A DNA stretch of 64,000 nt, taken from sequence record NC_018859.1, one strand, 5' to 3'. Positions 6,432 through 62,470 of this stretch are shown here, one piece after another (position 1 is the first letter of the stretch; each line of letters opens with the position of its first letter). The notes under the pieces are model-generated. The model saw only the letters and a program-made list of their open reading frames with translations, searched no databases and was not told where the DNA came from. Source of the stretch: Escherichia phage ECBP2. A program made the translations under genes and the position numbers.

Positions 6432-7442
6432 ATGGGTGCTGGAGGTTTTCGTAAGAATACTGGAAGAAACAACACCACACTTCCCTACAACGTTGGGTTT
6501 CTAAACAATGTAGAGGATACGGATAAATATAACGTTGCAGTTTATGATGAATTACAGAAAGTCAGTACAGCAACCAATCAAATGTTCCAAGCAATCGACG
6601 AGATTCATGATGAGATAGATGTTCGTATTAAAGCTCTTCATGCAATGAATCTACAGTTCGATGAACTTGAGAACCGAATTACTACAGAGATTGAAACAGC
6701 AATTGCTGATATCCAAACACAGATGGGTAATCTATCCACTGAAGATATTTGGGATAGAAGCACTAATCCTCCTACTAAATTGGATGGTACAGTTGCAGGT
6801 TTCAAAACTTCTATTGAAGGTAATGACTTAAAGATTCAGACAGTACAAGGGATTGTGAACGAACAGGGAGAGGAGATTGCTTTAGTTCAAACAGAACTTA
6901 CTGCTCAGGGTACTCAGATTGCTGAAGTGGATGGTAAGGTTACTACCGTACAGAACTCTCTTTCTCAATACATGAGATTAGACAGCTATGAAGCTACATG
7001 GGGTGTCAACTCTTCTGTTAACGGTCAGTATGCTGGAGTTAAACTTACTAACAACGGTACGAATAGTCAATTCCAAGTAACAGCTAACAAGTTTATTGTC
7101 GGTGATGGTAACTCAGGTAACACACCTTTCGTATTTGAAGGCGGTAGGGCTAGGATGGAGTTCGCTGATATTAAGAACGTCAACATTACCACAGCTCAGA
7201 TTGCTAATGCTCGTATTCAGTTTGCTCAGATTGATAACGTGTGGATTACTGACGGTCAGATTGCTAACCTTACTGCTAACAAGATTACTGCTGGTTCTAT
7301 GAGTGGTTCTAATTGGAGACTTACAGTTGGTGGAGATTTTGTTATGGGTGGTACAGGTGGGGCACAGCTGTGGATGAATGGTAACAGGATTGATTTCTAC
7401 GATGGTGGTGGTGCTTTGAGAATTAGAATAGGGAGTTGGTAA
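6432..7442 (+). CDS. virion structural protein (coiled-coil N-terminus, fibre-like repeats)
   Basis: Track ORF starts at TTG 6420; ATG at 6432 has a GGAGGT RBS; repeats ITTAQIANARIQFAQIDNVWITDGQIANLTANKITAG. Confidence 0.5.
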   Translation: MGAGGFRKNTGRNNTTLPYNVGFLNNVEDTDKYNVAVYDELQKVSTATNQMFQAIDEIHDEIDVRIKALHAMNLQFDELENRITTEIETAIADIQTQMGNLSTEDIWDRSTNPPTKLDGTVAGFKTSIEGNDLKIQTVQGIVNEQGEEIALVQTELTAQGTQIAEVDGKVTTVQNSLSQYMRLDSYEATWGVNSSVNGQYAGVKLTNNGTNSQFQVTANKFIVGDGNSGNTPFVFEGGRARMEFADIKNVNITTAQIANARIQFAQIDNVWITDGQIANLTANKITAGSMSGSNWRLTVGGDFVMGGTGGAQLWMNGNRIDFYDGGGALRIRIGSW

Positions 7443-8472: not shown

Positions 8473-9267
8473 ATGACAATACGCATGGGAGTGTCCGAGC
8501 TAGACCCTATGGTCCAGCAAGCTTCTAAAAAGTACGGCATTCCTGCTGCTCTTATCCATGCAGTTATTCAGAGGGAGTCTAGTGGTAGACCTTCTGTTGC
8601 ATCAGGTACAGGGCCGGTAGGTTTAATGCAAATAAGTAAAGGGCTGGCTAAGGATTATGGCTACAAACTAGAAGATCGTCTAGACCCTGCTAAGAATATT
8701 GATATGGGTGCTAGGTATATCAGAGACAACTTAAAAGCTTTTGATGGTGATGTGAAGAAAGCTATGGTGGGATATTCTGAAGGGACTGGTGGAGCAAAAC
8801 AAATGTTCGCTGGTAAGAAAGGATTCACACCTCAGGCTTTGGATTCTATGAACAATAAGAACTTTCTTCCTTTCTATACAGCTAATGATGCTGCTGGTCA
8901 GGTTGCTAACCCGATGGGTGCTTTACAGTCAGTACAGCCAGTGAATCAGTTCTCTCCTGAATTGGTTACTAGAGAAGGTGCTGCTAATGCTCCTACTCAG
9001 GCTGAGATTGCTGCTGCTAAGACAGGTGCTCTTGGTGGCTCCCCTACTGAGTTCTATTCTGATGATGTAGAGGAAGCTGGAGAAGATCAGAAGCCACAAC
9101 AGAACTTTGGTAATGCTGCACTAGCTGCTGCTGCAATGTTAGCGGGTAAGGCTCCTAAGTCTCAAACAGTTCAGAGAGCACATGCACCAACTCAAGCAGG
9201 TTCTCAATACAGCCCACATACACAAGCCGTTCTTAGACGTTTGGCAAGTGTTGGTGTTATTAAATAA
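8473..9267 (+). CDS. lytic transglycosylase (SLT domain) virion/ejection protein
   Basis: ESSGRPSVASGTGPVGLMQISKGLAKDYGY matches the SLT catalytic E-S...GLMQ...Y motif. Confidence 0.7.
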   Translation: MTIRMGVSELDPMVQQASKKYGIPAALIHAVIQRESSGRPSVASGTGPVGLMQISKGLAKDYGYKLEDRLDPAKNIDMGARYIRDNLKAFDGDVKKAMVGYSEGTGGAKQMFAGKKGFTPQALDSMNNKNFLPFYTANDAAGQVANPMGALQSVQPVNQFSPELVTREGAANAPTQAEIAAAKTGALGGSPTEFYSDDVEEAGEDQKPQQNFGNAALAAAAMLAGKAPKSQTVQRAHAPTQAGSQYSPHTQAVLRRLASVGVIK

Positions 9268-11321: not shown

Positions 11322-12953
11322 ATGCAACAAACATCTTACGCGTATCTTCGTAGTCAAGACCCGCGCAATCAGATTTATGGTGATCGTCAGAGAGGGGTTA
11401 CGGCCTCTCCTTACATGTCTAGACCTGCTGGTCCAGCTGCTGACCTTTCTATGTATCAGCGTCCTGCTGTACCTGCTGGTTTGGATGAACAAGTACAACA
11501 AGCTCAGGCTGATCAACAGGCAATGGTCAATCCGGGATTCAAGCAACGTTTGTATGAACAGCAAGGCATTTCTGTCCCTACCAGTTTGGCTGGTATTGAC
11601 GCTGGTATTAATCCGGGTGAAGAAGGCTCTATGATACCTCCTGATGTAGCTCCTGCTTCTAGTCCTCTTCCGGTTACTGCTCCTGCTAAACCAATTGAAG
11701 AGTCAGATAAAGAATTTGCCCCTGAACAAGTACAACAGGCACAAGGTGTGATGAATACTATCGCTTCTGGAGTTCCTCAGGGTGAAGGTATGAGCGGTGC
11801 TACTCGTGCTGCTGACCAAGAACGTGTTAACCAAGATATCCTTAAAGTTGCACAATCTAAGAACCCAGCAGAAGCTTGGAAGACTATGCAGAAACAACCT
11901 TTCTATCAGAACTCTAGTTTCTATACTGGTTTGATGGGTGTAGGTCTTTCTATTATGTCTGGTAAGTCTCCGATTGAAGCATTCCAGATTGGTTCTGGTA
12001 TGGCATCTCAGGATGAAGCTAAACAACAGTTGGAGTTGAACCGTGATAACCTGATTGAACAAGGTTACTCTCAAGATTCTGTAGCTGCTGCTATAGCTTC
12101 TGGTGATCCTTCGATGTTGAAGATGCGTCAGATTAGTCCTCAGGAGAAGATGGCTCTTGCTGCTCAGGATGAAGCTCGTGCTAATCAAGAGTGGGATAGA
12201 CGTCAACAGATTCAAGACCAGTCGGTTCGTGAACGTGCTGCTGAAACTCGTCGTGCTGCTGAAGAACGTGCCGATGCACAGTTTGCTAAACAGAAAGAGC
12301 TTATTGGCTATCGTGATCAGGTTAAAGCAGACCGTGCAGAACAAGCTGCTCAGAGCTTCAACTTCAGTACGAAAGAGCTTCGTAACGTTCAGAATACTGC
12401 TGAAGGCTCTGTTGCTAAACAGTGGGCAGAAAAAGCAGCTCTGTTTAAACAGTCTCACAAAGACTTGGATTTGGCAGACAAAGCCATTAAAGATGGTGAT
12501 TATCAATCTGCTCGTACCGCTTACATGCAGGCTATCATGAACTCCGCAAGGGCTGAAATTGGTGCTAACCGCTCTCTGCAAGCAGATGACTTATCCCACT
12601 TTGCAGAAGACCCGTCAATCTTTGTTAAGACTGGTAACACTTGGTCTCTCAAAGCTGGTTATCGTCCTTCTGATGCAGCTCTGTCTTATGCTCGTAAGCA
12701 GGCAACAGTTGGTGCTTCTTCCGCTGATAAGGGTGTTCTGGAATCTAAGAAAGCTACAATTGATGCTTATATTGGTTCTGGCATGGATAAGAAGCGTGCA
12801 ACTGCTGTGGTTAACCGTGGTATCCCTTCTGGTGGTTTCTATGACCCATACAAGACTTTTGATGCAGAAGCTGATGAAGCTGTTGGTGGTGCAGCAACTA
12901 ATCCCAAACTTAATGGTGCTCTGTCTTCTAATGTTGATTGGATGATTCAGTAA
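11322..12953 (+). CDS. virion/ejection protein
   Basis: 543 aa ORF in the structural operon; Ala/Gln-rich helical composition. Confidence 0.45.
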   Translation: MQQTSYAYLRSQDPRNQIYGDRQRGVTASPYMSRPAGPAADLSMYQRPAVPAGLDEQVQQAQADQQAMVNPGFKQRLYEQQGISVPTSLAGIDAGINPGEEGSMIPPDVAPASSPLPVTAPAKPIEESDKEFAPEQVQQAQGVMNTIASGVPQGEGMSGATRAADQERVNQDILKVAQSKNPAEAWKTMQKQPFYQNSSFYTGLMGVGLSIMSGKSPIEAFQIGSGMASQDEAKQQLELNRDNLIEQGYSQDSVAAAIASGDPSMLKMRQISPQEKMALAAQDEARANQEWDRRQQIQDQSVRERAAETRRAAEERADAQFAKQKELIGYRDQVKADRAEQAAQSFNFSTKELRNVQNTAEGSVAKQWAEKAALFKQSHKDLDLADKAIKDGDYQSARTAYMQAIMNSARAEIGANRSLQADDLSHFAEDPSIFVKTGNTWSLKAGYRPSDAALSYARKQATVGASSADKGVLESKKATIDAYIGSGMDKKRATAVVNRGIPSGGFYDPYKTFDAEADEAVGGAATNPKLNGALSSNVDWMIQ

Positions 12954-12973
12954 GACCTAAGTCCTATCTCTTA

Positions 12974-12984
12974 TAATGTATATA
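12974..12984 (+). promoter_or_regulatory. TAATGTATATA promoter-like motif inside a GTCCTA...TAGGAC inverted repeat
   Basis: Exact 11-mer, 35 nt upstream of the ATG at 13019; same motif recurs at four other intergenic sites. Confidence 0.5.
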
Positions 12985-13018
12985 GGAGGTAGGACATTTT
13001 TATTTATAAGGAGAAATT

Positions 13019-16000
13019 ATGGCTAACTTAAAACCGTGGGAAGAAGCTTCTAAAAGCCCTGCGTATTTGAACGCCTCCCCTGAGCAACAGTCTCAGATGC
13101 GAGAACAATATAAAGCAGCAGGTGGAACAATTCCTGAGGCGGCTCCAGCTCCGAAACAAGAAGAACAACCGGGATTAATTGGTGACTTTGCTCAAGGTGT
13201 GTCCAATGCTATTCAATCAGGTGGTGCTAATATTGCAGCTAGTGCTGCTAGAGGTATTGGTGGATTAGTTGAGATTGGAGAGAATCTAACTGGTTCACAG
13301 ACAAGCTATGGTAAGCGTATTCAAGAGAACTCTAAGAATTTATTAGAAGAACGTCTCTCTAAGATTGAAGATGGTATTGGGAAGTCAGCTGGTCAGTATG
13401 CTGGTGTCGCTGCTGATATCGGTTTGACAGTTGCTAACCCTGCTATAGCTGCTGCTGTTATTGCAGCTCGTGAGACAGGCCGTGCTTATGCAGACCAAAC
13501 TCCAGAAGAGGGTGAAGAGAAGTCTGTTCTTGATGCTGGTTTAGTTGGTGGTGCTAACTTTGCAGCTCAGAAGATTCTTCCGGGGATGACAGGCACTGCT
13601 TCTACTACTCTAGGTCGTGTTGGTCAGAGTGTAGCATCTAATGCAGTGGCTGGTGCTAAAGGTGGTGCTCTTGTAGGTGCTGCTGAAGCACAGAACAAAT
13701 ATGGTGATGACACTACTCTTGCTAATATTATTGAAGGTGCTGTAGAAGAAGGTGCGATGGGCGCTGCTTATGGTGGGGCTATTGGTGGGGTTCATGGATT
13801 GATCAGTCGTCCTAGTCCTCAAGTATTTGACCGTACTCCAGAGCATGTTAAAACTGATATTGCCGCTGAAGATGAAGCGATACGTAGTGCTACTAATGCT
13901 GATGAATTACGTGAAGCGTATTCTAAAGCTGACAATGCTAACACTGCTTCTGCCCTTAACCTTCTGGACGAGAATGGTTTCCGTGTTACTGATGCTGTGG
14001 CTATGGATTCTCCTGCTGCTCAGCGTATCCTGAACACTGACCAAAGTCGTGCTGAGAAGGCTGCTACCATTCTGGAAGATCGTTCTAACGTTCCGGGTTT
14101 GAACCCTCTTGCTGCTCCTAACAAGCGTCAAGGTAAAGCGAACGCTGATAACGAACACAACCAGAAACAAGCCGTAGCAATGAAAGATGCGATGGCTGAC
14201 TATACGAAAGACAACACTAAGTCTCTATCTGACGTACTGGACAATCTTGACCGTGAATTAACATCTGCTCGTGCTAGTGGTGACTTTACTGGTAGTGCTA
14301 TGGATATTAAGAATCGTACTCAAGCTGACCGTGACTTCATTGATGCTTACAAAACTTTCTATAACGAAGCTAACCGATTCAAAGCTCGTGATGGTGAAGA
14401 CTTCAACAACTTCATCGAGAAAGCAACTGAACTACAGAAGCTAGCTGATAATGTTTCTCCAGAGATGAAGACTGCTATTGGTGGTTTGAAGAAACTCAAA
14501 GGTATGCCTGAAGGTTTCAACCCAATCCAAGATGCTTTCACTCTGAATAACACAGCTAAGTTAATGAGTAACCAAGACCGTGGTTGGACCTCTCTAACTG
14601 CTGACGGTTTCAAAGAAGCTGCTCCTCCGGTTCTGATTAAGAATCCACTTGGTGCTGCTAAACATGTTCTCAACCGTTTCCGTTCTGACCGTGCTCGCTC
14701 TCAACGTGAAGGCCAACAGGCGGCTAACAGCGAAGCTATTCGTTCTCTTGCTCGTAGTGATATGGAAGTAACTCGTGCTCGTGCTCAGGCTGATGAAGCT
14801 CGTGCTGCGATGGAGAAAGAACCTGAAGTTGATGACATTAAATTTAGAACTCAAAATGACCCGGAAATCGAACCGGTTCGGGAGCCTTCTGCTACTACTG
14901 TGACGGAAGAAATTTCCTCTCCTCAAACCTCTCCTTTAACTGCTCGTGATTTGGTCGCACAAAGACGTGCTTTGAAGGAAGCTCAAGCTAGACGTCAGGA
15001 AGCCGAAGCTAGTAAGATTCAGGAAGAGCCAACTCCCGAGCCAGAGCCACAAGAACCAGTTACTACAGCGAGAGATTTAGTTGCTCAACGTCGTGCTGTT
15101 TCAGAAGCTCGTAAACGTCAAGAAGCAGAAGAGGCCAGCAAGGCTGCTGAGAGCGCCCCCGAGGAACCAACTGTTCAAGCAGAGCCATTGCCTACCCGTG
15201 CTCCTAAAGCTCCTGAGGTTGAGGCTGAGCCTGTTAAACCGGCTACTGGAATCGAACGTCTGGCTGCTATGTCAAGTGCTGCTCGTCAAGCTACTAAAGA
15301 CCGTGCAGATCGCTTTGCTCGTTCTCTGTATACGGCAGGTGCGAAGGCTAAAGCTACAGCTGAAAACTTCCTTTCTTATAAAGGTGACCCGAAAGAGTTG
15401 ATGCGTCGTATTCGTCAGGAAGACCAAGCGAACAACTCCGAACGTCATGCTGAGATGGCTCGTAACCAACTTGCTTCTCAACAGGGTATTGCTGCTGCTA
15501 AGTCACAACGTGTTCGTTCTTCGTTTGCTGATTGGGTTAAGGAACGTGGTCTGCCTTCTGATATTGCTACCAAGGCATTACGTGCTGAGGAGAAAGGTAT
15601 TGGTGGGAACGTGACTAGTTTGGATTCACTGAAGCGTAGGTCTGAACGTCTGTATCAGAAACAACGTGATGATGAATTTAACAAACTATATGAGGAAGCT
15701 CTTGCAGAGAATAAGAAGATTGACAAAGCTGATGCCCCTAAACTGGTTGACCAGAAGAAAGAGTTACACAGTGAAATCAATACACTTCTTGATGCAGAGC
15801 CATTACGTCCAGCTCAGAAAGATGCTATGCGTAAGATGATGGAAGATTTTGTAGATGGGAAGTTTAAAGCTTCAGAGAGGGCTGGAAGGGAAGATGCTTT
15901 GGAAGTGGGACAGATGAAGGATATATGGGATGGCTTTATCAACACCTATAACCGTGAAGTTAACATGTTCAACAAAGCTAATAAGAACTCTCAGTACGAA

Positions 16001-19785: not shown

Positions 19786-20377
19786 AGAGATCTCTCCGTG
19801 TCTGTGCAATACTGTACTCTAAATACTCCACTGCCTCTTCTACAGAACCATCATTAAAGAGAAGATAGGTTGAAAGGTTCGTGCCTTCAATATAGGAACG
19901 AGAGTCTCCTTCAAAAGTACATCCATCCCGATAAATCTGAATTACTCGAACATCGAAATGCTTTTCCAGTTCTTCAACTTCTGCTTTGAATCCACCATCA
20001 GAGAAAACGATAACATCGTTCTGTCCTAGCAGTTGTTGTTGTTGAATGCTGCTAACAGCAAGTTTACCCATGCAGGTATCCCCAAACATTGGCTTCAGAT
20101 AGTTCTCACTAGTTGAAATCATCAAATCTCGAACTGACTTACCGCCCCATTCAGGACGGTTATGTTCTTTCCACTCACGGTCGTTGTACAGCTCCATGAA
20201 CTCATGAAGAGGGAGACCTAATGCAGCAGCAGCCACTCGATACATAGGCTCCTTAAAAGCCTTTACATGAGGTCTAAACTCATCGTTACCGAGTGTCTTC
20301 TCTAACCAAGAATTAGCGATTGTATCTTTACCACAACCCGGTGGTCCATTCAGAATTACTACTAATGGTTTACTCAT
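19778..20377 (-). CDS. P-loop nucleotide kinase (dNMP kinase-like)
   Basis: Walker A VVILNGPPGCGKDT resembles the N-terminus of phage dNMP kinases. Confidence 0.5.
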   Translation of the reverse strand: MSKPLVVILNGPPGCGKDTIANSWLEKTLGNDEFRPHVKAFKEPMYRVAAAALGLPLHEFMELYNDREWKEHNRPEWGGKSVRDLMISTSENYLKPMFGDTCMGKLAVSSIQQQQLLGQNDVIVFSDGGFKAEVEELEKHFDVRVIQIYRDGCTFEGDSRSYIEGTNLSTYLLFNDGSVEEAVEYLEYSIAQTRRDLYA

Positions 20378-21027
20378 TATTGAATCATCCCTTGAAGATC
20401 TTCTTTATCAAAGTGCTTCTCTACTACCGCTTCATACAGATCACGATTCTCTGCATAACGGCGATAGAAAGTTCCGTGTGAAATTCCCAGCTCCTGCTGG
20501 ATGTGATCATGAGGTATTCCAAGGAAGAGCATAGAGAACATGCTTGCCATTTTCTTGGTATCCATAATATCACTTAAGTCTTGGAAGAAGAAAAAGATTC
20601 TAGATTCCAAGAATGGGTCTCCAGTAGAGTCATGCTTATCCATCGCAATCTCTAAAGGACTTTCCCACGAGTTCATCTCAGGAGGTCTAAACATATCAGC
20701 CTCTGGAATAGAGTAGATACGTCGGTCTCCAACTGTCTGACGGTTAGAACGAATTGACCAGATGATATTCTTAACACGATAAGTCATGTGCTCAATATCT
20801 TTTTCATCAGTGAGCAGAAGTTCTTCTTGCTTTGCAAACACAAAACGCCAAGCGTTCAGTAACACTTCCTGAGCAACATCCTCTGCTTCGTGATAATCTT
20901 TAATGTCATACATAAAATACTTATGCACAACTTTCCAGTTCTCCCGATAGAATTCATCGAAGGTTGGATAATACTTAATAGGAATGCCATGAATACGATA
21001 GCGTGTAGGTGTTGTCTTTTTCTTCAT
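20377..21027 (-). CDS. phage-encoded sigma factor-like protein
   Basis: [15 protein letters not shown] resembles sigma region 2; C-terminal [17 protein letters not shown] resembles a region-4 helix-turn-helix. Confidence 0.5.
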
Positions 21028-21051: not shown

Positions 21052-21276
21052 TTAAACTACGCAGAATAAATACATAGCCGTTTCAGGGCAAGGGATGGCT
21101 GTCTGAATGCCACTCACTTTAATCCACATATCCTCTTCAGAGTCATAATAGGCCCAATAGGATTGATCTCCATCTACAAAGAACTTAAAGGTTCGTCCCC
21201 AAATCTGGTTGTTATACTCCCATACTGCATGAAATTGAGTAACACCTTCTGGTATTGTAAGTTCCGCTCTGATCAT
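21052..21276 (-). CDS. hypothetical protein
   Basis: 74-aa ORF between the sigma-like gene and the spanins. Confidence 0.4.
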   Translation of the reverse strand: MIRAELTIPEGVTQFHAVWEYNNQIWGRTFKFFVDGDQSYWAYYDSEEDMWIKVSGIQTAIPCPETAMYLFCVV

Positions 21277-21533
21277 TGTATCCCTCTCTTCTTGAGAGCT
21301 TTCAGTAAACCATTATGGTTAGCAGCACAGGTTGTGTAGTTGTCCTGATACCACTCTAATGTTGTTGCAAATGCCACTCCCTGTGCACTCTGAAGCAAAG
21401 GGAGATCAACATCACATTCAGCTTTTAGGTTTGTTGGTAAGGGCACTAGCTGCCTGCTGTTGTCGCTCGTTGAACAAGCTGACAAATTCATCGCTAGCAC
21501 ACACATTGTAAAAAACTGGCTTAGTCTTTTCAT
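21273..21533 (-). CDS. o-spanin (Rz1-like outer-membrane lipoprotein)
   Basis: Signal peptide with lipobox LSAC; Pro-containing short mature part; starts inside the i-spanin gene in another frame. Confidence 0.5.
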   Translation of the reverse strand: MKRLSQFFTMCVLAMNLSACSTSDNSRQLVPLPTNLKAECDVDLPLLQSAQGVAFATTLEWYQDNYTTCAANHNGLLKALKKRGIQ

Positions 21534-21765
21534 AATGCATCTCTTTGTAAATAGTTTCTGTGTTCTTCTTCCAGTTTGATAAACCAGTTAGAACTTTCTG
21601 AGCTACTTCATCAGCAGCCTTAGCTCTCTCTATCTCTATCTCTTGCTGTTTCTTCTCTTGGTCAAGAGCATTACTATCATTTCGATATTGCTCAAACTTC
21701 ATACCACCAAAGAAAACCAGAGCTGTAAAGATTAAGAAGCCGATATTATTTTGAAGCTTTTCCAT
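21418..21765 (-). CDS. i-spanin (Rz-like)
   Basis: N-terminal TMD IGFLIFTALVFFGG followed by a charged coiled-coil; track start 21789 is a GTG inside the upstream terminator hairpin, ATG at 21765 has a GGAG RBS. Confidence 0.5.
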   Translation of the reverse strand: MEKLQNNIGFLIFTALVFFGGMKFEQYRNDSNALDQEKKQQEIEIERAKAADEVAQKVLTGLSNWKKNTETIYKEMHYEKTKPVFYNVCASDEFVSLFNERQQQAASALTNKPKS

Positions 21766-21824: not shown

Positions 21825-22565
21825 TTAGAAAGGGCTGTCATCTTCTTCAAAGGTAGATTGCGGCTCTTCATTAATAGTAGGGATACTTGGAGTCGCGTCT
21901 TTCTGTTCAGTGTCAGAAGCGCGAGTAACTTCACGACCGGCCAGAGGAATGTTTTTAGCATCGTTAGCTTGAGTCAGAAGGTTACGTTGGAATGGAAACA
22001 TAGCTTGATAAGCAGCCAAGTTGGCGTCAGTTTCAGCGTACGGTTCGAAGAAGATAAGGTCGCTACGAGGAGCACCTACTGCATCACGATACTTGGTCGG
22101 GATTGGAGTGATGCTCTTGATGGAGTTTTTCTTCTCACCAGCTTTGTTGGTGTAAGAGTTAACTAGAATGTTGACAGGCTGACCAAGCAGCATATCTTTG
22201 AACCAACCCAAATCACCTTTCAGTGCTTGAACACTTGGGTCGATCATTTTAATTAGGTTCAGAATACCAGAGTTCTTAGCTCGTGGGTTTACATCGAAGG
22301 ATTTAAACTGACAAGCAGGACGTGGGTCCAATGCCTTACCATCACTATCTGTACCAGTTGCGTCAACACCAATCAGTTCAAATGCCAAGTCCATACGGAA
22401 AGCTGGGTTCTTAGGAGTAACTGCTTTGGTCTTAGGGTCAATCCAAGGGTCACGATTGTGAACACCTAAACCTACTACACGAACAATTCGTGCTTCGTAC
22501 TCGCCATCAGGGATTACATCGTAGTTGGATTTACGGGATACAGACAGTTCAGGGATCATAGACAT
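21825..22565 (-). CDS. putative ssDNA-binding protein (acidic C-terminal tail ending in Phe)
   Basis: 246 aa ending EEPQSTFEEDDSPF, like the acidic C-tails of SSB / T7 gp2.5; first gene after a TAATGTATATA motif. Confidence 0.4.
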   Translation of the reverse strand: MSMIPELSVSRKSNYDVIPDGEYEARIVRVVGLGVHNRDPWIDPKTKAVTPKNPAFRMDLAFELIGVDATGTDSDGKALDPRPACQFKSFDVNPRAKNSGILNLIKMIDPSVQALKGDLGWFKDMLLGQPVNILVNSYTNKAGEKKNSIKSITPIPTKYRDAVGAPRSDLIFFEPYAETDANLAAYQAMFPFQRNLLTQANDAKNIPLAGREVTRASDTEQKDATPSIPTINEEPQSTFEEDDSPF

Positions 22566-22622
22566 ATTAATATTTCCTTATATAAATTTAAGATTGTTGC
22601 TCTCTTTGAGCGGTTGGTATAC

Positions 22623-22633
22623 TATATACATTA
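22623..22633 (-). promoter_or_regulatory. TAATGTATATA promoter-like motif (- strand)
   Basis: Exact 11-mer about 55 nt upstream of the ATG at 22565. Confidence 0.5.
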
Positions 22634-22695
22634 CACCTATACAGATAAGGTTCTATTATACTATAACCTTTTTGGTAGTAGATAACAGTAAGTAG

Positions 22696-22706
22696 TAATG
22701 TATATA
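22696..22706 (+). promoter_or_regulatory. TAATGTATATA promoter-like motif (+ strand, no downstream ORF)
   Basis: Exact 11-mer pointing rightward into about 200 nt of non-coding sequence and then antisense to the next gene. Confidence 0.35.
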
Positions 22707-22913
22707 TGGTATAGTTAGTAAAACTATTGCACGGGACCGACGACTATAAGGCGCGGACAACCACCTCTCATAAGTTTGTTAGAAATTGAGAGACTACCGG
22801 AAGGGCAGGAGACACCTGCGAGATAAAAATAGAGAATTAAGGAAATCCTTGATTTAGGTTGAGGACTCCTAGGACTTTGATTCTCTATTAAAATCAAAAG
22901 AAAACTAATTAAC

Positions 22914-23492
22914 TTACCATTCAATAAACTGATTTAGATTAGTATACTTAACTTCTCTCTGAAACTGAAGATTAGATTCTCTCTGTTTAGTAAGAAGATT
23001 AAGTTCATCTTCCTTTCTTTTATCAAACTCTTTTCTAATCTCTTGCAGAGACACAGCTCTGTAATCAATTTGTTCCATAGAAGTACAAAAGTATCTCCAA
23101 TCTTTGATAGTAGAGTTATGAGTATGAGCATAGATATTATACTTTCCTCTCATTTCATCAGAGTGAATAGGAATATGAGTTACCCAAAACTCTTTGTACT
23201 TATAATCACCACTGATGTGTCTAAAGACTTTCATCATATCAGGGAGAAGTTCTAATCTGTCATGATTTCCTAAGACAAGATGTTTCTCTCCTTTTACTTC
23301 AGCGATGATATCAAGGGCATACTTTTCAAACACCCAATCACCGGTAAAGAAAGTTTTATCACGTTTAGTAACATGGTCAAACGCTGCTAAGATAGCTTTG
23401 TCGTGTTCTTCAATACTACTAAACCTCTTCCTAAAGCTACAGATGTTACGATGGCCTAGGTGACCATCACCTGCAAAATAAACTTCAGCCAT
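22914..23492 (-). CDS. calcineurin-like metallophosphoesterase
   Basis: YFAGDGHLGH ... FTGDW ... LGNHD match metallophosphatase motifs I-III. Confidence 0.65.
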   Translation of the reverse strand: MAEVYFAGDGHLGHRNICSFRKRFSSIEEHDKAILAAFDHVTKRDKTFFTGDWVFEKYALDIIAEVKGEKHLVLGNHDRLELLPDMMKVFRHISGDYKYKEFWVTHIPIHSDEMRGKYNIYAHTHNSTIKDWRYFCTSMEQIDYRAVSLQEIRKEFDKRKEDELNLLTKQRESNLQFQREVKYTNLNQFIEW

Positions 23493-29330: not shown

Positions 29331-29657
29331 TTAACTTGAGCTTAAAGCTCCTTTTCTAGACTTGACTCCGCCTGCTGATTTTCCAGCACGATCTCCACTT
29401 TTGCCGCCGTTCGAGCGATTTCCAGAGATTGATTCAACACGTAAGTTACTTGACGCATTAGAACCTCCCGACTTGATTGATCGTTTATGTCCAACGTCTT
29501 TACCTCGGACAGCAGCTTTTCCATCGCGCTTTTCAACGATGCGACGTGCACGGTGGCGCTGAGCATCTCCGCTCTTGCTACCAACACCTGTCTCCCCACG
29601 TTTGATTGCAGTTCTTCGTTCTTGTGCATAATCACGTTTCGCCTTATCGGTCATCAT
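29331..29657 (-). CDS. highly basic Lys/Arg/Gly/Ser-rich protein
   Basis: 108-aa ORF behind AAGGAG RBS and a TAATGTATAC motif; an alternative 97-aa ORF in another frame covers the same DNA (29342-29635). Confidence 0.4.
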   Translation of the reverse strand: MMTDKAKRDYAQERRTAIKRGETGVGSKSGDAQRHRARRIVEKRDGKAAVRGKDVGHKRSIKSGGSNASSNLRVESISGNRSNGGKSGDRAGKSAGGVKSRKGALSSS

Positions 29658-29688
29658 AACTCCTTAATATATCAGTGTACACTAAGGA

Positions 29689-29698
29689 GTATACATTA
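29689..29698 (-). promoter_or_regulatory. TAATGTATAC promoter-like motif (- strand)
   Basis: About 32 nt upstream of the ATG at 29657, just after the PhoH stop. Confidence 0.45.
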
Positions 29699-34392: not shown

Positions 34393-34714
34393 TAGGAGTC
34401 TCTCCTTCTAAGTTGGTTGAATTGGCTACGTTACGAGCAATGTTGTCCATGACCTGCTGGGTAATAACAATGCAATTCTGTGGGTCTACAGACTTAGAAC
34501 GCCCCATTTCAGGGTCATAAACCTTAACACGTTTGGCTGTTGAGCCAGTAACTTGCAACACTTTGAGAAGATAACCTTGATTTCCAATAGACCATGCAAC
34601 AACATCACGATTCTTGATATAACGACCAAGCATATCACGATGATAGAACTGCTGCATAACTTTAGCTTTGCTAATCTCTTCAGATGGCGGGGCCACTTTA
34701 CTCAAATCTAACAT
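34385..34714 (-). CDS. hypothetical protein
   Basis: Track ORF 34385-34732; second ATG (34714) has an AGGAGAGAG RBS; an AATGTATATA motif lies just upstream. Confidence 0.45.
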   Translation of the reverse strand: MLDLSKVAPPSEEISKAKVMQQFYHRDMLGRYIKNRDVVAWSIGNQGYLLKVLQVTGSTAKRVKVYDPEMGRSKSVDPQNCIVITQQVMDNIARNVANSTNLEGETPNA

Positions 34715-34748
34715 AACTCTCTCCTGTTTCATACAATATTCTTATACT

Positions 34749-34759
34749 GTATATACATT
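34749..34759 (-). promoter_or_regulatory. AAATGTATATA promoter-like motif (- strand)
   Basis: Ten of eleven positions match the TAATGTATATA motif; sits in the 50-nt gap between genes. Confidence 0.4.
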
Positions 34760-34784
34760 TGAGAGTTATCATATCTACTACCAA

Positions 34785-35942: not shown

Positions 35943-37387
35943 GAGTTTCTATTTCCTTGTACAGATGATGCCAAATTGTTAATCATGTTGCGAGCTGTTT
36001 CACGAGATAGTGTAACACCTGCTAAGTTGTTATGAAGCTCACCAGATAGTTCACGAGCAGCAGCTCGAAGTTCTGCACCAAGTGCAGTGTCAGAGTGAGC
36101 CAGACCGTTACGACGACCGACAGGTCGAGGAGTATTGTTAGCATCATTAGCTAAAGATGGAAAATCAATACGAGCAGCTTCACGAGCCGCTATCGCTGCT
36201 ACTCGATCTTCCGTAGGGGTTGGCAAATCACCAACTTCTACACGTTCTATATCACCAGCACATAGACCCTGAACAACTGAGCTTACTGTTTCCCATGAAC
36301 GATGAGAACGCTGTAAATCACCCATTGACGGAGAAGGAATAGGACGAGCAGTTCCCCCTTGAACATGCCATGTACGGTTGTGGGTGTCCGTCCCAGAAGA
36401 ACGTGCACTACCAAAACTACCATTAAAAGTATTACGAGGGTCCATTGTAGAAGGGGCTGCGAATCTTGGGACTTCCTGTTGCCAAGAGTCACGTCTGTTG
36501 GTTCCCGGAGTCCAAGGTTGTGTGATTGCTTCAGCACCGATAGTGGTTAATCCACTAGACCATTCTGTCTGTAGGTTAACTTCCTCGTCCAGATAACTAC
36601 GACCCCTTTCCTGAGGAATGTTTAATATAGTTTCCATCATCTTCAGGGTATAATGACGACGCTGATTCTGATATAAATTTACACCAGCCATAGGTCCAAC
36701 TAAATCACTAATCAGGTGAACTTCTGGCTCACCGAAAGCTCCCATTGCAAGGTGCATATATTCGGTAGAACTGCTATAAACTGCAACAGTTGCTTCAGGC
36801 CACTTCTTGTGAACGTACTTCATTTCACGACTAGATACCACAGGAATGTCACGAGTGTATGACATTGCAAACAAACCTTCGTTTGACACATACAGATTAC
36901 CAAGAGTCATAAACCCTTGACAGATCATAGGGAAGCGACGGCTTAAAGTATCCATATCCAAAGGTAGATTAATCATCATCTGGATTTTAACTTGATCAAT
37001 CTCAATTTCCAGAATCTCTTGGAAAGTGAAAAGCGCTTCAGCATAGGTTGTCCCGTTAACAGGCTGAATTAGTCGAGATGTAACTTGAAGCCCCTTACTC
37101 TCTGTCCAAGACAAGAAGTTGTCAAGGAACAGTGCAGCATTACTTACGTTAGCAGGGCTGTTTTCCTGACGAGTGTTCCAACGGAATCCCCCTTGAACTA
37201 GGAAGATATCAACATCATTCGGAGTTCGATTTTGGAAGAACGTATCACGGATAGCACCACCTGCAATGACAGGATAGATACCATCAGGGACTACGTTATC
37301 TCTGATCAAATTACGAATTAGGTCAAGCCCTACACTGAGGGCTTCTCCTTCTTGAAGGTTCAATTCAGACAATGGAATCTTAATCAT
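35939..37387 (-). CDS. Pol-beta-superfamily nucleotidyltransferase (CCA-adding/poly(A)-polymerase-like head) with long C-terminal extension
   Basis: YPVIAGGAIRDTFFQNRTPNDVDIFLVQ matches the GG[AV]xRD...DxD head motif of class II tRNA nucleotidyltransferases; 482 aa. Confidence 0.5.
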   Translation of the reverse strand: MIKIPLSELNLQEGEALSVGLDLIRNLIRDNVVPDGIYPVIAGGAIRDTFFQNRTPNDVDIFLVQGGFRWNTRQENSPANVSNAALFLDNFLSWTESKGLQVTSRLIQPVNGTTYAEALFTFQEILEIEIDQVKIQMMINLPLDMDTLSRRFPMICQGFMTLGNLYVSNEGLFAMSYTRDIPVVSSREMKYVHKKWPEATVAVYSSSTEYMHLAMGAFGEPEVHLISDLVGPMAGVNLYQNQRRHYTLKMMETILNIPQERGRSYLDEEVNLQTEWSSGLTTIGAEAITQPWTPGTNRRDSWQQEVPRFAAPSTMDPRNTFNGSFGSARSSGTDTHNRTWHVQGGTARPIPSPSMGDLQRSHRSWETVSSVVQGLCAGDIERVEVGDLPTPTEDRVAAIAAREAARIDFPSLANDANNTPRPVGRRNGLAHSDTALGAELRAAARELSGELHNNLAGVTLSRETARNMINNLASSVQGNRNS

Positions 37388-41064: not shown

Positions 41065-41250
41065 TTATTCTACTTCGAAGTGTTTGATCACACCAGTCAA
41101 CACATCAGATTGGAATGTACCTACCAACTCCACTCCTCGGAAGAAGTTAACACTTGTTCCAAGCGATTCAAAACGCTCTGCTTGAATATCTAGAGATTGA
41201 ATATTACCTTCTGAGTTTACTGTACGAAACATGATTGTGTATTTATTCAC
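41065..41250 (-). CDS. hypothetical protein
   Basis: 61-aa ORF. Confidence 0.35.
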   Translation of the reverse strand: MNKYTIMFRTVNSEGNIQSLDIQAERFESLGTSVNFFRGVELVGTFQSDVLTGVIKHFEVE

Positions 41251-41489
41251 AGAGTTGTTACTCCCTTATCTTCTTGTGCAATTGCGATGATACGCTCAAC
41301 ACATTCCATTGAATATTTATCACCTCGTTTAAGGAAGGTGACAATTGCAGAGAACTGATTACCAATCATTCTCTTGTTTGTGATTCCAAACTCTTCACAG
41401 AGTTGGTTAATAGCTTTACGAGAACCAACAATCAGAGGTTCTTTTTGTTCGGTCATTCCACGACTGATCAAATCTTCGATAGACAACAT
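41247..41489 (-). CDS. hypothetical protein
   Basis: 80-aa ORF, ATGA overlap. Confidence 0.4.
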   Translation of the reverse strand: MLSIEDLISRGMTEQKEPLIVGSRKAINQLCEEFGITNKRMIGNQFSAIVTFLKRGDKYSMECVERIIAIAQEDKGVTTL

Positions 41490-46422: not shown

Positions 46423-47045
46423 AACGTTTCCACCAACTCTACATTATATGATGACAGATCTGAAGAAATATGCTTGAACTTCTCCAGAAGGTTTAAAGAT
46501 TGACGACCATTGTCGCCGTTACCAGCAGAAAGATCAACTTGACCTACAAAAGCCCCTTTGTAGTAAACTTTACCATCAACAGGGTTAATATAGATGAAGC
46601 GAGTAACCAGACCTTCAAAGTCAGGGTTGAACAGGTTATACACCAGCTCTCCTGGAATCGAACGTCCCATTGAAGGAGGTGCACCACGCAGCTTGTTCCC
46701 CATCAGACCCTTAGCTCGCTGACGAACAGGGTTGATATGAGTCCAGCTTACCATGTTGTTACCATGTTGCAGATAGCCCACATCTGGAGATTCCAGAATC
46801 AGGCTCTGATCAAACACAGGAATACCCTGAACAACCTGTCGCTCAAACTGCCCTTCGGAGTTCTTAGACCAGCGTTCAACTTCAAAGGTTAAGGCCATTT
46901 CGGCTTCGTGAGAGAAGTCGTCTTCCCCAAAGCGGTTTGGTTGGGTTACGTTAAGCACATACAGAGGGAGATTAATCCCTCGTTCTGCGCGTTGGGCAAT
47001 CCATGTTCCGCAATAATAATGCTGAAAATCTCTTAACAGGCTCAC
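46419..47045 (-). CDS. hypothetical protein (ligase cluster)
   Basis: 208-aa ORF, ATGA overlap with the amidoligase. Confidence 0.45.
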   Translation of the reverse strand: MSLLRDFQHYYCGTWIAQRAERGINLPLYVLNVTQPNRFGEDDFSHEAEMALTFEVERWSKNSEGQFERQVVQGIPVFDQSLILESPDVGYLQHGNNMVSWTHINPVRQRAKGLMGNKLRGAPPSMGRSIPGELVYNLFNPDFEGLVTRFIYINPVDGKVYYKGAFVGQVDLSAGNGDNGRQSLNLLEKFKHISSDLSSYNVELVETL

Positions 47046-54294: not shown

Positions 54295-54370
54295 TGGTGC
54301 ACCCTACAGGATTCGAACCTGTAACCAACGACTTAGAAGGTCGCTGCTCTATCCATTGAGCTAAGGGTGC
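54295..54370 (-). tRNA. tRNA-Arg (anticodon UCU), CCA encoded
   Basis: GCACCCTTAGCTCAATGGATAGAGCAGCGACCTTCTAAGTCGTTGGTTACAGGTTCGAATCCTGTAGGGTGCACCA folds as a cloverleaf: 7-bp acceptor, GCTC/GAGC D-stem, anticodon loop CUUCUAA, T-arm ACAGG-TTCGAAT-CCTGT. Confidence 0.85.
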
Positions 54371-60706: not shown

Positions 60707-61499
60707 CTTTCAATTGTAAGGGCACTATGCCCCGCTCTCTATGAGCTTTTTAAGTCGCCATTGACTTATCAATATCCACTCATTGTTAAGTAATTATTGA
60801 TAAGTGGGGCGGTCTTATCAGAAGTTAACCTTGCCGCCCCTTTATCTGTGATGTTTCATCTGGTATCTTTAATTAGTCGCTATAAACGAAGCCGACCTGA
60901 TAGCGATGATCAATCATCACAATAAGGCAGTGCGTCCGACTCTAATTAGTTACTTTATTGTAACCGTCGGCAATATCGTCTACTTTGCTTTCGCTCTCGC
61001 CTATCCTTTTATACTAACTCTCAATCGCTAACCATCGCCCACTACGGGAGGTTATTGCGAAAGAGTCATTAGCCGTCTAATATTCCGACGTTTTATATCT
61101 TTCGGCAAGTTTACTACATAACCCGACTATGTACTTTCATCTTATGATGAATCTCAAGCCGTTCACATCGTAAACGTTCACACTAAACCTTATTGTTAAA
61201 TAGCAATTTGCCACTTTTTAACCACTCCCCGCCGCTCTCAATTGAGCGTTAATTCGTCGGACTTGCCTACCCTGATTAACTTCTTTCACTGTAGCACCAT
61301 GTTAGCGATGGCCGCCGCTACCCTTAACCGTGGGCGATTAGCTTAAGCCTTTGCGTGTACTCAATGAATCCGTTTATCAGTGGTGACTTTTCCAGTAAGG
61401 GAATGTAAAACTGTTTACCCTGATATTTTAGGGAGTTTTACGCCGTTTTATCTGGTATGCTGTCCGATGGTTATTATCTTCCAGCATATTTAACCGATA

Positions 61500-62470
61500 T
61501 AGGAGAATGTTTAAATTGTTAAAGAGCGGTAAATCTATCAACGTGCTTTCTCACGTTATGCAACTGTTAGCCGTTGTTACGCTTTTCACTGAAGCGGTGA
61601 TTTGCTCAAGTGATGCTCATTATGGACCATGTTGTTTTTGCCGTCAATCACTTTTTTAATCTTTTTCGTCGTTCCCGCTATTGGGAGGATATATCAACCC
61701 GCTTTATTGGGTTGAAGATTAAGCGATGAGGCTTAACCCATGATTCATATTGTTAAAGAGCGTTTAGCCTTTTATAGTGTCTGCTAATCACTACATCATT
61801 AAAGGCTTACTTGTTCATTAACGGGGCGCCTAAGCCCGAACTACCCGCTGCACTATGTGCCACCTTTCCCGCGATACGTTGATTTGGGAACTAGTTAACG
61901 TTGTTTTGTTAACTTGTGGTTAGTATGGACTACCTTAACCACGTTTGCAACCTCTTTTTTATCATCTTCTTTTATTCTTTTCCCTTATCTCGCGTGAATC
62001 TATGCGAAAGGGCAAGATGATAAGTCTGATTTGTCTTTTAGGAATCTAGTGCGCTTTCAAGCATTGACCATTTGAAAGTATCGAACAAATGAGGCTTATT
62101 TTGTTGCTCATCGTCCGCATGTTCACGTATGAATCAGGAATCAATTCTAGTGGTCAACTAAGCGCCTTATAGTAATGACGTTCCCGCCACCTGTAAGACA
62201 AATCATATTTTTAAAGAGCGGGATTTTTCAAGTCATCGCTGACTATGCTCACTATATATCAGGCTTTTTCCGGTGTCAATACTCTTTTTCAAGTATTTTC
62301 ACTTTCTAGCCTGATTTTTAAAGAGCGGGGCAATTTCTTGCCTTGTATGTTTTACATCGTACCCGATGAAATGAAGTATACATTAATCAGATGAGGTTGC
62401 AATAGGGTAAAGCAAATTATTTTAAACTTTTTCACTATAGGGAGGTAAAAGAGCGGGCGCACGTGATACA
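61500..62470. repeat. dispersed copies of an AAAGAGCG(G) motif in a non-coding region
   Basis: TTAAAGAGCGG-like sites at about 61515, 61753, 62214, 62325 and 62449, plus 63701; no ORF of 60 aa or more between 60793 and 62352. Confidence 0.45.

What the first reader, a model, noticed from the sequence alone, without database searches (positions are those of the whole stretch)
12961..12996. Recurring TAATGTATATA promoter-like motif on both strands, with a sigma-factor-like gene in the window
Exact or near-exact copies occur at 12974 (+), 22696 (+), 22623 (-), 29689 (-) and 34749 (-), all in short intergenic gaps and four of them 25-55 nt upstream of a gene. At 12974 the motif sits inside a GTCCTA...TAGGAC inverted repeat, which could be an operator. 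An 11-mer recurring five times in 64 kb is far above chance. A sigma-like protein (20377-21027) is a candidate specificity factor for these sites.
Basis: partly seen in the sequence, partly recalled or inferred. Interest (0 to 1): 0.5.

Follow-up and report, generated by a model that had tools for sequence, protein, structure and literature searches.

The report
Known phage sigma-factor promoters, plus one extra
The repeated TAATGTATA motif is the already published promoter signal read by the phage's own sigma factor in phiEco32-like coliphages, so the finding is correct but not new; the one loose end is a fifth, conserved copy that points at a structured non-coding stretch.

Summary
The window is a phiEco32-like (Kuravirus-group) coliphage. 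The motif is real, and five of the seven AATGTATA copies lie in the 9% of the window that is non-ORF sequence.

Four copies (12974+, 22623-, 29688-, 34750-) sit at the syntenic positions of the published phiEco32 promoters P26, P40, P58 and P68. Their sequences match the published table, consensus tAATGTAtA.

The 216-aa ORF is 81% identical to phiEco32 sigma factor gp36 (PDB 9m7y). Every reported DNA-contact and clamp-contact residue is conserved. The co-activator gp79 is also encoded (41247-41489, -).

The "operator" reading is not supported. GTCCTA/TAGGAC is the base of a 15-bp hairpin followed by a T-run. Substitutions across phages keep the pairing only through G·U on the + strand, which fits an RNA terminator for the upstream gene with P26 embedded in it.

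The fifth copy (22696+) is not among the six published promoters. It shares with P68 an exact 13-mer at the -35 position. It is kept in 18 of 19 distinct relatives. It faces an ORF-free, conserved, + strand-structured ~185-nt region. It is a candidate non-coding RNA promoter and is untested.

The parts
12974..12984 (+). Core element (TAATGTATATA) of the orthologue of phiEco32 late promoter P26. Predicted start about 12988-12990, 30-nt leader to the ATG at 13019.
   Evidence: Exact match. Syntenic with phiEco32 26015, upstream of gene 26. Matches published Table S3. Invariant in 6 phages.
12951..12959 (+). TAAGACCTA, an upstream element ending 15 nt before AATGTA (positions -38 to -30). It has A at -34.
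   Evidence: Invariant in 6 phages. The same 9-mer at the same spacing precedes phiEco32 P13. It occurs only 3 times in the window. Any function is inferred.
12961..13005 (+). 15-pair hairpin (12961-12995, loop ATGTA) followed by ATTTTTATTT. It is a terminator-like RNA structure at the end of the gene-25 orthologue.
   Evidence: MFE -21.2 kcal/mol, z -4.5. Top hit of the terminator scan. 98.9% of cells paired across 6 phages, with 5 one-sided changes all kept as G·U on the + strand.
22623..22633 (-). Core element of the orthologue of phiEco32 middle promoter P40. Predicted start about 22617-22619, 53-nt leader to the ATG at 22565.
   Evidence: Exact match. Syntenic with phiEco32 36632 (-). Invariant in 11 phages. 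Listed in Table S3.
22672..22706 (+). Px, a fifth gp36-type promoter-like site: TTGGTAGTAGATA (-39 to -27), a 12-nt spacer, then AATGTATATA. It is divergent from P40 and is not among the six published promoters. Predicted start about 22710-22712.
   Evidence: Exact core. The 13-mer is shared only with P68, at identical spacing. It supplies G-37 and A-34, the two -35 contacts reported by cryo-EM. The flanking elements are invariant while the spacer varies in 11 phages. Kept in 18 of 19 distinct sequences. Also present in phiEco32 at 36705 (+).
22709..22895 (+). ORF-free, conserved, structured region downstream of Px; a candidate ~185-nt non-coding RNA. It has three modules: a 5' hairpin (22709-22732), a variable middle module found in two alternative forms, and an invariant ~100-nt 3' block (about 22798-22893) ending in a long hairpin. 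On the - strand the same long hairpin is followed by TTTTTATCTC, which is terminator-like for leftward transcripts.
   Evidence: Alignments A1 and A5. The + strand folds better than the - strand: z -3.44 against -2.26, and consensus -34.5 against -24.8 kcal/mol. The 5' hairpin shows compensatory changes and + strand-only G·U pairs. No Rfam family matches. No consistent reading frame across the two forms.
29688..29698 (-). Core element (TAATGTATA + CT) of the orthologue of phiEco32 middle promoter P58. Predicted start about 29682-29684, 26-nt leader to the ATG at 29657.
   Evidence: Syntenic with phiEco32 42937 (-). Listed in Table S3. Has G-37 and A-34.
34750..34784 (-). Orthologue of phiEco32 middle promoter P68: TTGGTAGTAGATA (34784-34772), a 12-nt spacer, then AATGTATATA (core aAATGTATA). 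Predicted start about 34744-34746. The likely ATG is at 34714.
   Evidence: Identical architecture in phiEco32 at 46869 (-), SU7, MN05 and Bas93. P68 is the promoter used for the cryo-EM open complex. Table S3 gives aAATGTATA.
20377..21027 (-). Sigma factor, orthologue of phiEco32 gp36 (216 aa).
   Evidence: PDB 9m7y chain F, E 2.2e-119. 81% identity. DNA-contact residues E79, H80, Y83, R84, W90, S91, S94, N95 and Y186/R187 (here Y188/R189) and clamp-contact residues D44, E47, E49, D50, E54 are all conserved. The Pfam Sigma70_r2 match is sub-threshold, 19.2 against 24 bits.
41247..41489 (-). Orthologue of phiEco32 gp79 (80 aa). gp79 inhibits sigma-70 transcription and co-activates gp36 transcription.
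   Evidence: PDB 9m7y chain G / 9m7z, E 1.3e-38. Function taken from PMC12276001.

Best explanation
The window belongs to a phiEco32-like (Kuravirus-group) coliphage. The recurring tAATGTAtA element is the -10-like recognition element of the phage's middle and late promoters.

The mechanism comes from phiEco32 experiments. The phage sigma factor (here the ORF at 20377-21027) replaces sigma-70 on E. coli core RNA polymerase. Its N-terminal domain reads A-14, A-13, T-12 and G-11 and melts the DNA from -11. Its C-terminal domain touches the -35 region, around G-37 and A-34. The small protein gp79 (here 41247-41489) evicts sigma-70 region 4 and stabilises the sigma's C-terminal domain. Transcription then starts 6-8 nt downstream of the motif.

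In this window the sites at 12974 (+), 22623 (-), 29688 (-) and 34750 (-) are the orthologues of P26 (late) and P40, P58 and P68 (middle). The identity of the parts is shown here by homology, synteny and conservation. Activity in this particular phage is inferred.

The GTCCTA/TAGGAC repeat is the base of a + strand RNA hairpin with a U-tract. It most likely terminates read-through from the upstream late genes, and P26 re-initiates from inside it (inferred).

The fifth site at 22696 (+) has the full P68-type bipartite architecture. It is most likely a genuine gp36 promoter that transcribes a conserved, structured, non-coding + strand RNA of about 185 nt (inferred, moderate confidence).
For: - Phage identity: 92% DNA identity to Escherichia phages TH42 and Bas88, and collinear with phiEco32.
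- Sigma factor: E 2e-119 to the gp36 chain of PDB 9m7y, 81% identity, all published contact residues conserved.
- gp79 orthologue present.
- Motif: enriched and concentrated in intergenic sequence.
- The four sites are syntenic with the published promoters and match their published sequences, including the P68-specific aAATGTATA.
- All five sites carry A at -34, and three carry G at -37. The two AATGTATA copies judged not to be gp36 promoters (32298+, 62384-) carry neither.
- Literature: PMC8948821, PMC4331800, PMC4281155, PMC12276001.
- Hairpin.
- Px.
Against: - No transcript data exist for this phage, so activity is inferred from an 81%-identical sigma factor and conserved sites.
- P58 here deviates from the 11-mer at two positions, although not within the published 9-mer.
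- The -37 base is G in only 3 of the 5 sites, so the -35 contact is not uniform.
- For Px, no + strand U-tract follows the 3' hairpin. One metagenomic relative (L020) has G-11 changed to A.
- The invariant 3' block carries no covariation. It could be conserved for a - strand terminator or a DNA-level role.
- I could not read Pavlova et al. 2012 or Savalia et al. 2008. I therefore cannot exclude that Px was tested there and found inactive, or was already described.
Confidence: 0.93

Rival explanations
1. The motifs are host sigma-70 promoters of an extended -10-like type (TG next to a TATA-rich hexamer), not sites for the phage sigma factor.
For: P26 contains a perfect TATAAT overlapping the motif (cttATAATGTA). 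The authors of the SU10 genome paper suggested that middle genes may be served by both holoenzymes. The AATGTATA copy at 62384 (-) does coincide with a sigma-70-like TTGCAA-16-TATACT site in the early region.
Against: The five sites have no TTGACA-like -35 element at the right spacing, and the sigma-70 scan did not report them. What is invariant across phages is AATGTA, not a -10 hexamer. In phiEco32 the orthologous promoters are transcribed by the gp36 holoenzyme, and gp79 shuts off sigma-70. The structure shows gp36 residues reading A-14, A-13, T-12 and G-11.
Confidence: 0.04
2. The GTCCTA...TAGGAC repeat around the 12974 motif is a protein operator that represses or activates P26.
For: The outer arms GTCCT/AGGAC are invariant in six phages and bracket the promoter from about -28 to +7.
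Against: The repeat extends to 15 pairs with a 5-nt loop and is followed directly by ATTTTTATTT, which is the anatomy of an intrinsic terminator. Five positions differ between phages on one side only. Each remains a pair only as G·U on the + strand RNA, so the DNA dyad symmetry is degraded (13 of 15 Watson-Crick pairs here, 12 of 15 in phiEco32) while RNA pairing is kept at 98.9%. No candidate repressor was found or is known.
Confidence: 0.05
3. The 22696 (+) copy (Px) is not a productive promoter for an RNA gene. On this view the conserved 22798-22893 block is kept for the - strand, as a terminator or processing hairpin ending the upstream middle or early operon before P40. Alternatively it is kept for a DNA-level function such as a transcription-activated replication origin. 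Px would then be a decoy site, a promoter that opens an origin, or an antisense promoter.
For: On the - strand the 10-bp lower stem is followed by TTTTTATCTC. The + strand hairpin lacks a U-tract. The 3' block is invariant, so it gives no covariation signal. In the available sources Px is not among the six published promoters. One relative carries AATATA at this site. No complementary target for the RNA was found in the window.
Against: Px shows a promoter-style footprint, with invariant -35-like and -10-like boxes around a variable spacer, in 18 of 19 distinct sequences. The hairpin that begins at the predicted +1 shows compensatory changes, and its invariant U·G and frequent G·U pairs exist only on the + strand. 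The + strand consensus fold is 10 kcal/mol better and has 42 pairs against 27. A plain terminator would not need invariant loops over ~100 nt.
Confidence: 0.4
4. The recurrence of the motif is a chance effect of A+T-rich intergenic sequence.
For: At up to 2 mismatches the 11-mer is not enriched, 26 against 24.6. Two AATGTATA copies (32298+, 62384-) look unrelated to gp36 promoters.
Against: 0 of 100 shuffles reach the observed count at up to 1 mismatch. Five of seven core copies fall in 9.3% of the sequence. All five sites are conserved at syntenic positions across phages whose intergenic regions are otherwise about 75% identical.
Confidence: 0.01

Closest known systems
[quoted passage not shown]
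   Same: The core sequence is the same. The gene neighbourhoods are the same for P26, P40, P58 and P68, and P68 carries the same aAATGTATA variant. The sigma factor is 81% identical with conserved contact residues, and the gp79 co-activator is present.
   Different: This is a different phage, about 75-92% DNA identity to described relatives. P6 and P13 lie outside the window. An additional conserved copy, Px at 22696 (+), faces away from all genes and is absent from the published list of six. It is also present in phiEco32 itself, at 36705 (+).
Late promoters of phage 7-11 read by SaPh711_gp47 (GTAAtg-N16-aCTA)
   Same: Both are phage-encoded sigma-70-family factors directing host core polymerase to phage-specific promoters at equivalent genome positions.
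   Different: The 7-11 sigma factor is only about 15% identical to gp36, its promoter consensus is different and clearly bipartite, and 7-11 has no gp79 homologue. The window matches the phiEco32 type, not the 7-11 type.
T4 middle transcription by sigma appropriation (AsiA and MotA)
   Same: In both, a small phage protein disables sigma-70 region 4 while a second phage protein supplies new promoter specificity. This analogy is drawn by the authors of PMC12276001.
   Different: Here sigma-70 is replaced by a phage sigma factor rather than remodelled, and the specificity element lies at -14 to -9 rather than at -30.
Rho-independent (intrinsic) terminators
   Same: The 12961-13005 element has a stable hairpin directly followed by a T-run at the 3' end of a gene.
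   Different: The stem is long (15 pairs) and A+U-rich with G·U pairs. Its loop and upper stem contain the -10-like element of the next promoter. Termination activity has not been tested.

Membership tests
phiEco32-type gp36-dependent promoters | Core element tAATGTAtA, with AATGTA at -14 to -9 | tested here: met
   TAATGTATA at 12974+, 22623-, 22696+ and 29690-29698-. AAATGTATA at 34752-34760-. The sequences are identical to published Table S3.
phiEco32-type gp36-dependent promoters | Location upstream of the orthologues of phiEco32 genes 26, 40, 58 and 68 | tested here: met
   The window is collinear with NC_010324 at an offset of about 13,040 nt. The sites correspond to 26015+, 36632-, 42937- and 46869-. 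Px at 22696+ corresponds to phiEco32 36705+, which is not a published promoter.
phiEco32-type gp36-dependent promoters | Cognate sigma factor (gp36) encoded by the same phage, with its DNA-reading residues intact | tested here: met
   E 2.2e-119 to 9m7y_F and 81% identity. E79, H80, Y83, R84, W90, S91, S94, N95 and Y186/R187 are conserved.
phiEco32-type gp36-dependent promoters | gp79 co-activator and sigma-70 inhibitor present | tested here: met
   ORF 41247-41489 (-), E 1.3e-38 to 9m7y_G.
phiEco32-type gp36-dependent promoters | -35-region contacts (G at -37, A at -34, as in P68) | tested here: inconclusive
   A-34 is present in 5 of 5 sites. G-37 is present in P58, P68 and Px, while P26 has A and P40 has T. 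The contacts were defined on P68 only.
phiEco32-type gp36-dependent promoters | Transcript 5' ends 6-8 nt downstream; transcription dependent on the gp36 holoenzyme | not testable with these tools
   This needs primer extension or dRNA-seq and in vitro transcription. It has been shown only for phiEco32.
Sigma-70 family (ECF-like) sigma factors | Recognisable region 2 and region 4 domains | tested here: inconclusive
   Pfam Sigma70_r2 scores 19.2 bits, below the 24-bit cut-off, and there is no region 4 hit. The solved orthologue has sigma-2-like and sigma-4-like folds. Membership is therefore by structure of the orthologue, not by sequence profile.
Intrinsic terminator (for 12961-13005) | Stable stem-loop immediately followed by a U-tract, at the end of a transcription unit, on the transcribed strand | tested here: met
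   15 pairs, -21.2 kcal/mol, z -4.5, tail ATTTTTATTT, 8 nt after the stop codon of the gene-25 orthologue. Pairing is maintained through + strand G·U. Termination itself has not been tested.
Palindromic operator (for 12961-12995) | DNA dyad symmetry maintained in evolution, and a cognate DNA-binding protein | tested here: not met
   The changes between phages break Watson-Crick symmetry on DNA but keep RNA pairing. No candidate binding protein was identified.
Described RNA families (for 22709-22895) | Match to an Rfam covariance model | tested here: not met
   No hit at gathering thresholds. Only chance-level hits with E of at least 0.66 in the permissive search.

The most novel reading that the evidence does not exclude
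The fifth motif copy (Px, 22672-22706, +) is a genuine gp36-dependent promoter that has so far gone undescribed. It would drive a conserved, structured, roughly 185-nt non-coding RNA on the strand opposite to all neighbouring genes. That RNA would have a 5' hairpin, a swappable middle module found in two forms, and an invariant 3' domain. If so, phiEco32-like phages would make a phage-sigma-dependent regulatory, antisense or replication-priming RNA in the middle or late phase. A smaller related point is that the gp36 promoters fall into subclasses by upstream element: TTGGTAGTAGATA for P68 and Px, and TAAGACCTA for the late promoters P13 and P26. This could underlie middle-versus-late timing.
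Probability: 0.4. Interest if true: 0.45.

Novelty: already known. Interest (0 to 1): 0.22.

Why it matters
This is an independent, sequence-only rediscovery of a well-characterised phage transcription switch: a phage sigma factor gp36, a co-factor gp79 and tAATGTAtA promoters. It confirms that the system is intact in another member of the group and lets the window's middle and late transcription units be annotated with confidence.

The possible added value lies in three details that the available papers do not describe:
- A conserved seventh promoter-like site that faces a structured non-coding region.
- A late promoter nested inside a terminator hairpin.
- Class-specific upstream elements that might explain middle-versus-late timing.

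Each is cheap to test in the phiEco32 model system. The reagents already exist there: purified gp36 and gp79, and promoter assays.

Tried and rejected
- Pfam scan of the sigma ORF gave only a sub-threshold Sigma70_r2 hit. The solved-structure search settled its identity instead.
- Pavlova et al. 2012 (PMID 22261232, PMC3275717) and Savalia et al. 2008 (PMC2587145) are not held. The primary experimental paper could therefore only be cited through later papers.
- An IMG/VR scan for the bipartite Px/P68 pattern returned one unrelated coding-region match, L015.
- Rfam searches at gathering and permissive thresholds found no family for the 22560-22930 region.
- A search for long complementarity between the candidate RNA and the rest of the window found only chance-level 11-12-mers.
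- Literature searches for a phiEco32 or Kuravirus non-coding RNA or transcriptome found nothing relevant.
- I considered and rejected a small protein-coding gene downstream of Px. The region has no ATG, and the two alternative middle modules put the conserved block in different frames.
- AATGTAGA copies (the P6-type variant) at 6507+, 37396- and 46445- lie inside genes and are not conserved in phiEco32, so I treated them as chance.
- The promoter features annotated in the SU7 record are generic sigma-70 predictions and were not informative.

Full report
**What the window is.** A 14-kb stretch around the finding matches 97 phage records, all coliphages or Shigella phages of the phiEco32-like group. 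The best matches are about 92% identical (TH42, TH34, StefiGeyer_Bas88). Gene order is collinear with phiEco32 (NC_010324) at an offset of about 13,040 nt. Rightward structural genes run up to 17437. After that, all genes run leftward.

**Checking the observation.** The exact 11-mer TAATGTATATA is at 12974 (+), 22623 (-) and 22696 (+). A one-mismatch copy is at 34750 (-). A two-mismatch copy is at 29688 (-), and it is exact for the 9-mer TAATGTATA.
- At up to 1 mismatch, no shuffle out of 100 reaches the observed 5 matches (expected 1.4). At up to 2 mismatches the 11-mer is not enriched (26 against 24.6).
- The core AATGTATA occurs 7 times against 2.5 expected.
- Five of those seven lie in the 9.3% of the window not covered by same-strand ORFs, P about 1e-4.
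- The stated distances to the start codons and the inverted repeat are correct, with small adjustments.

**What the motif is.** The motif is the published promoter element of the phiEco32 sigma factor gp36.
- Lavysh et al. 2022 summarise the original work: six gp36-dependent promoters, upstream of genes 6, 13, 26, 40, 58 and 68. These share the single consensus tAATGTAtA, with starts 6-8 bp downstream. [quoted passage not shown]
- Their Table S3 lists TAATGTATA for P13, P26, P40 and P58, aAATGTATA for P68 and TAATGTAgA for P6.
- The same six are given in PMC4331800. PMC4281155 gives them as three middle and three late promoters.
- Xu et al. 2025 solved the open complex on P68. The gp36 N-terminal domain reads A-14, A-13, T-12 and G-11. 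The C-terminal domain contacts G-37 and A-34. gp79 displaces sigma-70 region 4 and stabilises the gp36 C-terminal domain (PMC12276001).

**Mapping to the window.**
- 12974 (+) corresponds to P26, upstream of the 1472-aa orthologue of gene 26.
- 22623 (-) corresponds to P40.
- 29688 (-) corresponds to P58.
- 34750 (-) corresponds to P68, and it carries the P68-specific aAATGTATA.
- P6 and P13 lie left of the window.
- With the cryo-EM numbering, the predicted starts are about 12989, 22618, 29683 and 34745. That gives leaders of 26-53 nt.

**The specificity factor.**
- The ORF at 20377-21027 (-) matches the gp36 chain of PDB 9m7y at E 2e-119 and is 81% identical to phiEco32 gp36.
- All reported DNA-contact residues are conserved: E79, H80, Y83, R84, W90, S91, S94, N95 and Y186/R187.
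- The acidic residues that contact the polymerase clamp (D44, E47, E49, D50, E54) are conserved too.
- Pfam alone gives only a sub-threshold Sigma70_r2 hit. This fits the literature's description of gp36 as a distant sigma homologue.
- The gp79 orthologue is the ORF at 41247-41489 (-), E 1e-38.

**The supposed operator.**
- GTCCTA (12961-12966) and TAGGAC (12990-12995) are the outermost pairs of a 15-pair hairpin at 12961-12995, whose loop is ATGTA.
- The hairpin has a minimum free energy of -21.2 kcal/mol (z -4.5). It is followed by ATTTTTATTT, 8 nt after the stop codon of the gene-25 orthologue.
- It is the top hit of the terminator scan.
- Across six phages, 98.9% of cells pair. Five positions change on one side only, and every change is an interconversion with G·U on the + strand. 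On DNA, or on the - strand, these would be mismatches.

This points to selection on a + strand RNA hairpin. It is most simply a terminator for late transcripts coming from upstream, with P26 nested in its apex. It is not a dyad-symmetric protein-binding site. Only read-through RNA can form the hairpin, because the P26 start lies inside its 3' arm.

**The fifth copy (Px).**
- The site at 22696 (+) lies back-to-back with P40 in a 348-bp ORF-free gap, 22566-22913. It points away from every nearby gene.
- It is not in the published list of six, yet phiEco32 has it too, at 36705 (+).
- It shares with P68 an exact 13-mer, TTGGTAGTAGATA, placed exactly 12 nt before AATGTA. This 13-mer occurs nowhere else in the window. 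It supplies G-37 and A-34, the two contacts seen in the P68 structure.
- In 11 diverse relatives the boxes TGGTAGTA-AT and TAATGTATA are invariant while the spacer between them varies. That is a promoter-type footprint.
- After adding metagenomic and IMG/VR genomes, 18 of 19 distinct sequences keep it. One, L020, has AATATA.

**What lies downstream of Px.** From the predicted start at about 22710-22712, the region has three parts:
- a hairpin with compensatory changes (U-A to G-C; C-G to U-A or A-U), an invariant U·G, and G·U in half of the sequences. These pairs exist only on the + strand;
- a middle module present in two unrelated forms. The window carries the longer form, also found in MN05 and myPSH1131. 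Its closest relative, Bas88, carries the shorter form;
- an invariant ~100-nt block ending in a long hairpin.

The + strand folds better than the - strand. Single-sequence z-scores are -3.44 against -2.26. The consensus folds are -34.5 kcal/mol with 42 pairs against -24.8 kcal/mol with 27 pairs. There is no consistent reading frame, no Rfam family and no obvious antisense target.

Some evidence points the other way. The + strand 3' hairpin lacks a U-tract. On the - strand, its lower stem is followed by TTTTTATCTC, so it may also, or only, terminate leftward transcription ahead of P40. I rate a gp36-dependent non-coding RNA at about 0.4. I could not read the 2012 primary paper, so I cannot say that Px was never examined.

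**The other AATGTATA copies.**
- 32298 (+) is inside a leftward gene and lacks A-34 and G-37.
- 62384 (-) coincides with a sigma-70-like TTGCAA-16-TATACT site in the ORF-free early-promoter region. It is absent from phiEco32 and also lacks A-34 and G-37.

Neither looks like a gp36 promoter.

**Verdict.** The system is already known: it is a further member of the phiEco32 group carrying the published gp36, gp79 and tAATGTAtA transcription switch. Three points are worth a small follow-up: Px with its structured downstream region, the promoter-in-terminator arrangement at P26, and the class-specific upstream elements.

Noticed in passing
window 22672-22895 (+): A fifth gp36-type promoter-like site (Px) is divergent from P40. 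It is followed by a conserved, ORF-free region that is structured on the + strand: a 5' hairpin with covariation and an invariant ~100-nt 3' block. It is not among the six published phiEco32 promoters, but it is present in phiEco32 at 36705 (+).
   Followed up: yes
window 22733-22797, compared with L001 (Bas88), L005 (MN05) and L008 (myPSH1131): The middle module of that region exists in two unrelated forms. The window carries the long form, as in MN05 and myPSH1131. Its closest relatives (Bas88, SU7, XT73) carry the short form. This suggests modular exchange by recombination.
   Followed up: partly
window 29659-29690 (-): Downstream of the P58 core, ACTCCTTA (29690-29683) can pair with TAAGGAGT (29666-29659), which contains the Shine-Dalgarno sequence of the gene-58 orthologue. 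The predicted P58 start, about 29683, lies at the end of the left arm. Only read-through transcripts could therefore hide the ribosome-binding site. The sequence is identical in phiEco32, MN05 and Bas93.
   Followed up: partly
window 12951-12959 (+); L002 about 9078-9086 (phiEco32 P13): The late promoters P26 and P13 (the latter in phiEco32) share TAAGACCTA ending exactly 15 nt before AATGTA. P68 and Px instead share TTGGTAGTAGATA. These may be class-specific upstream elements.
   Followed up: partly
window 60707-62351: This is a 1.6-kb ORF-free stretch in the early region. It holds five copies of an 18-nt repeat (TCATATTGTTAAAGAGCG and variants, + strand coordinates) and several strong sigma-70-like promoters on the - strand, for example TTGACA-17-TATAGT at 62279-62251. 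It corresponds to the gene-free early-promoter spacer of phiEco32 and SU10.
   Followed up: partly
window 62375-62402 (-): An extra TAATGTATACT copy coincides with a sigma-70-like TTGCAA-16-TATACT site. It is not conserved in phiEco32 and lacks the A-34 and G-37 of the gp36 promoters. It is probably an early promoter, not a gp36 site.
   Followed up: partly
window 34714 and 34732 (-): The ORF finder starts the gene-68 orthologue at the ATG at 34732. An in-frame ATG at 34714 is preceded by AGGAGAG and gives the 109-aa length of phiEco32 gp68, so it is the likelier start.
   Followed up: partly
L012 (SU7) 21233-21631: In phage SU7 the P58 site is missing. The gap upstream of the gene-58 orthologue holds an inserted small ORF with an HNH-like CxxCH motif.
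   Followed up: no
L020 (metagenome contig ERZ1034915 NODE-75), about 120 nt upstream of 9044: One relative has AATATA in place of AATGTA at Px, a G-11 to A change. That should inactivate gp36 recognition while creating a TATAAT hexamer.
   Followed up: no
window 54295-54370 (-): A single tRNA-Arg (anticodon TCT) lies among the early genes, as in phiEco32.
   Followed up: no
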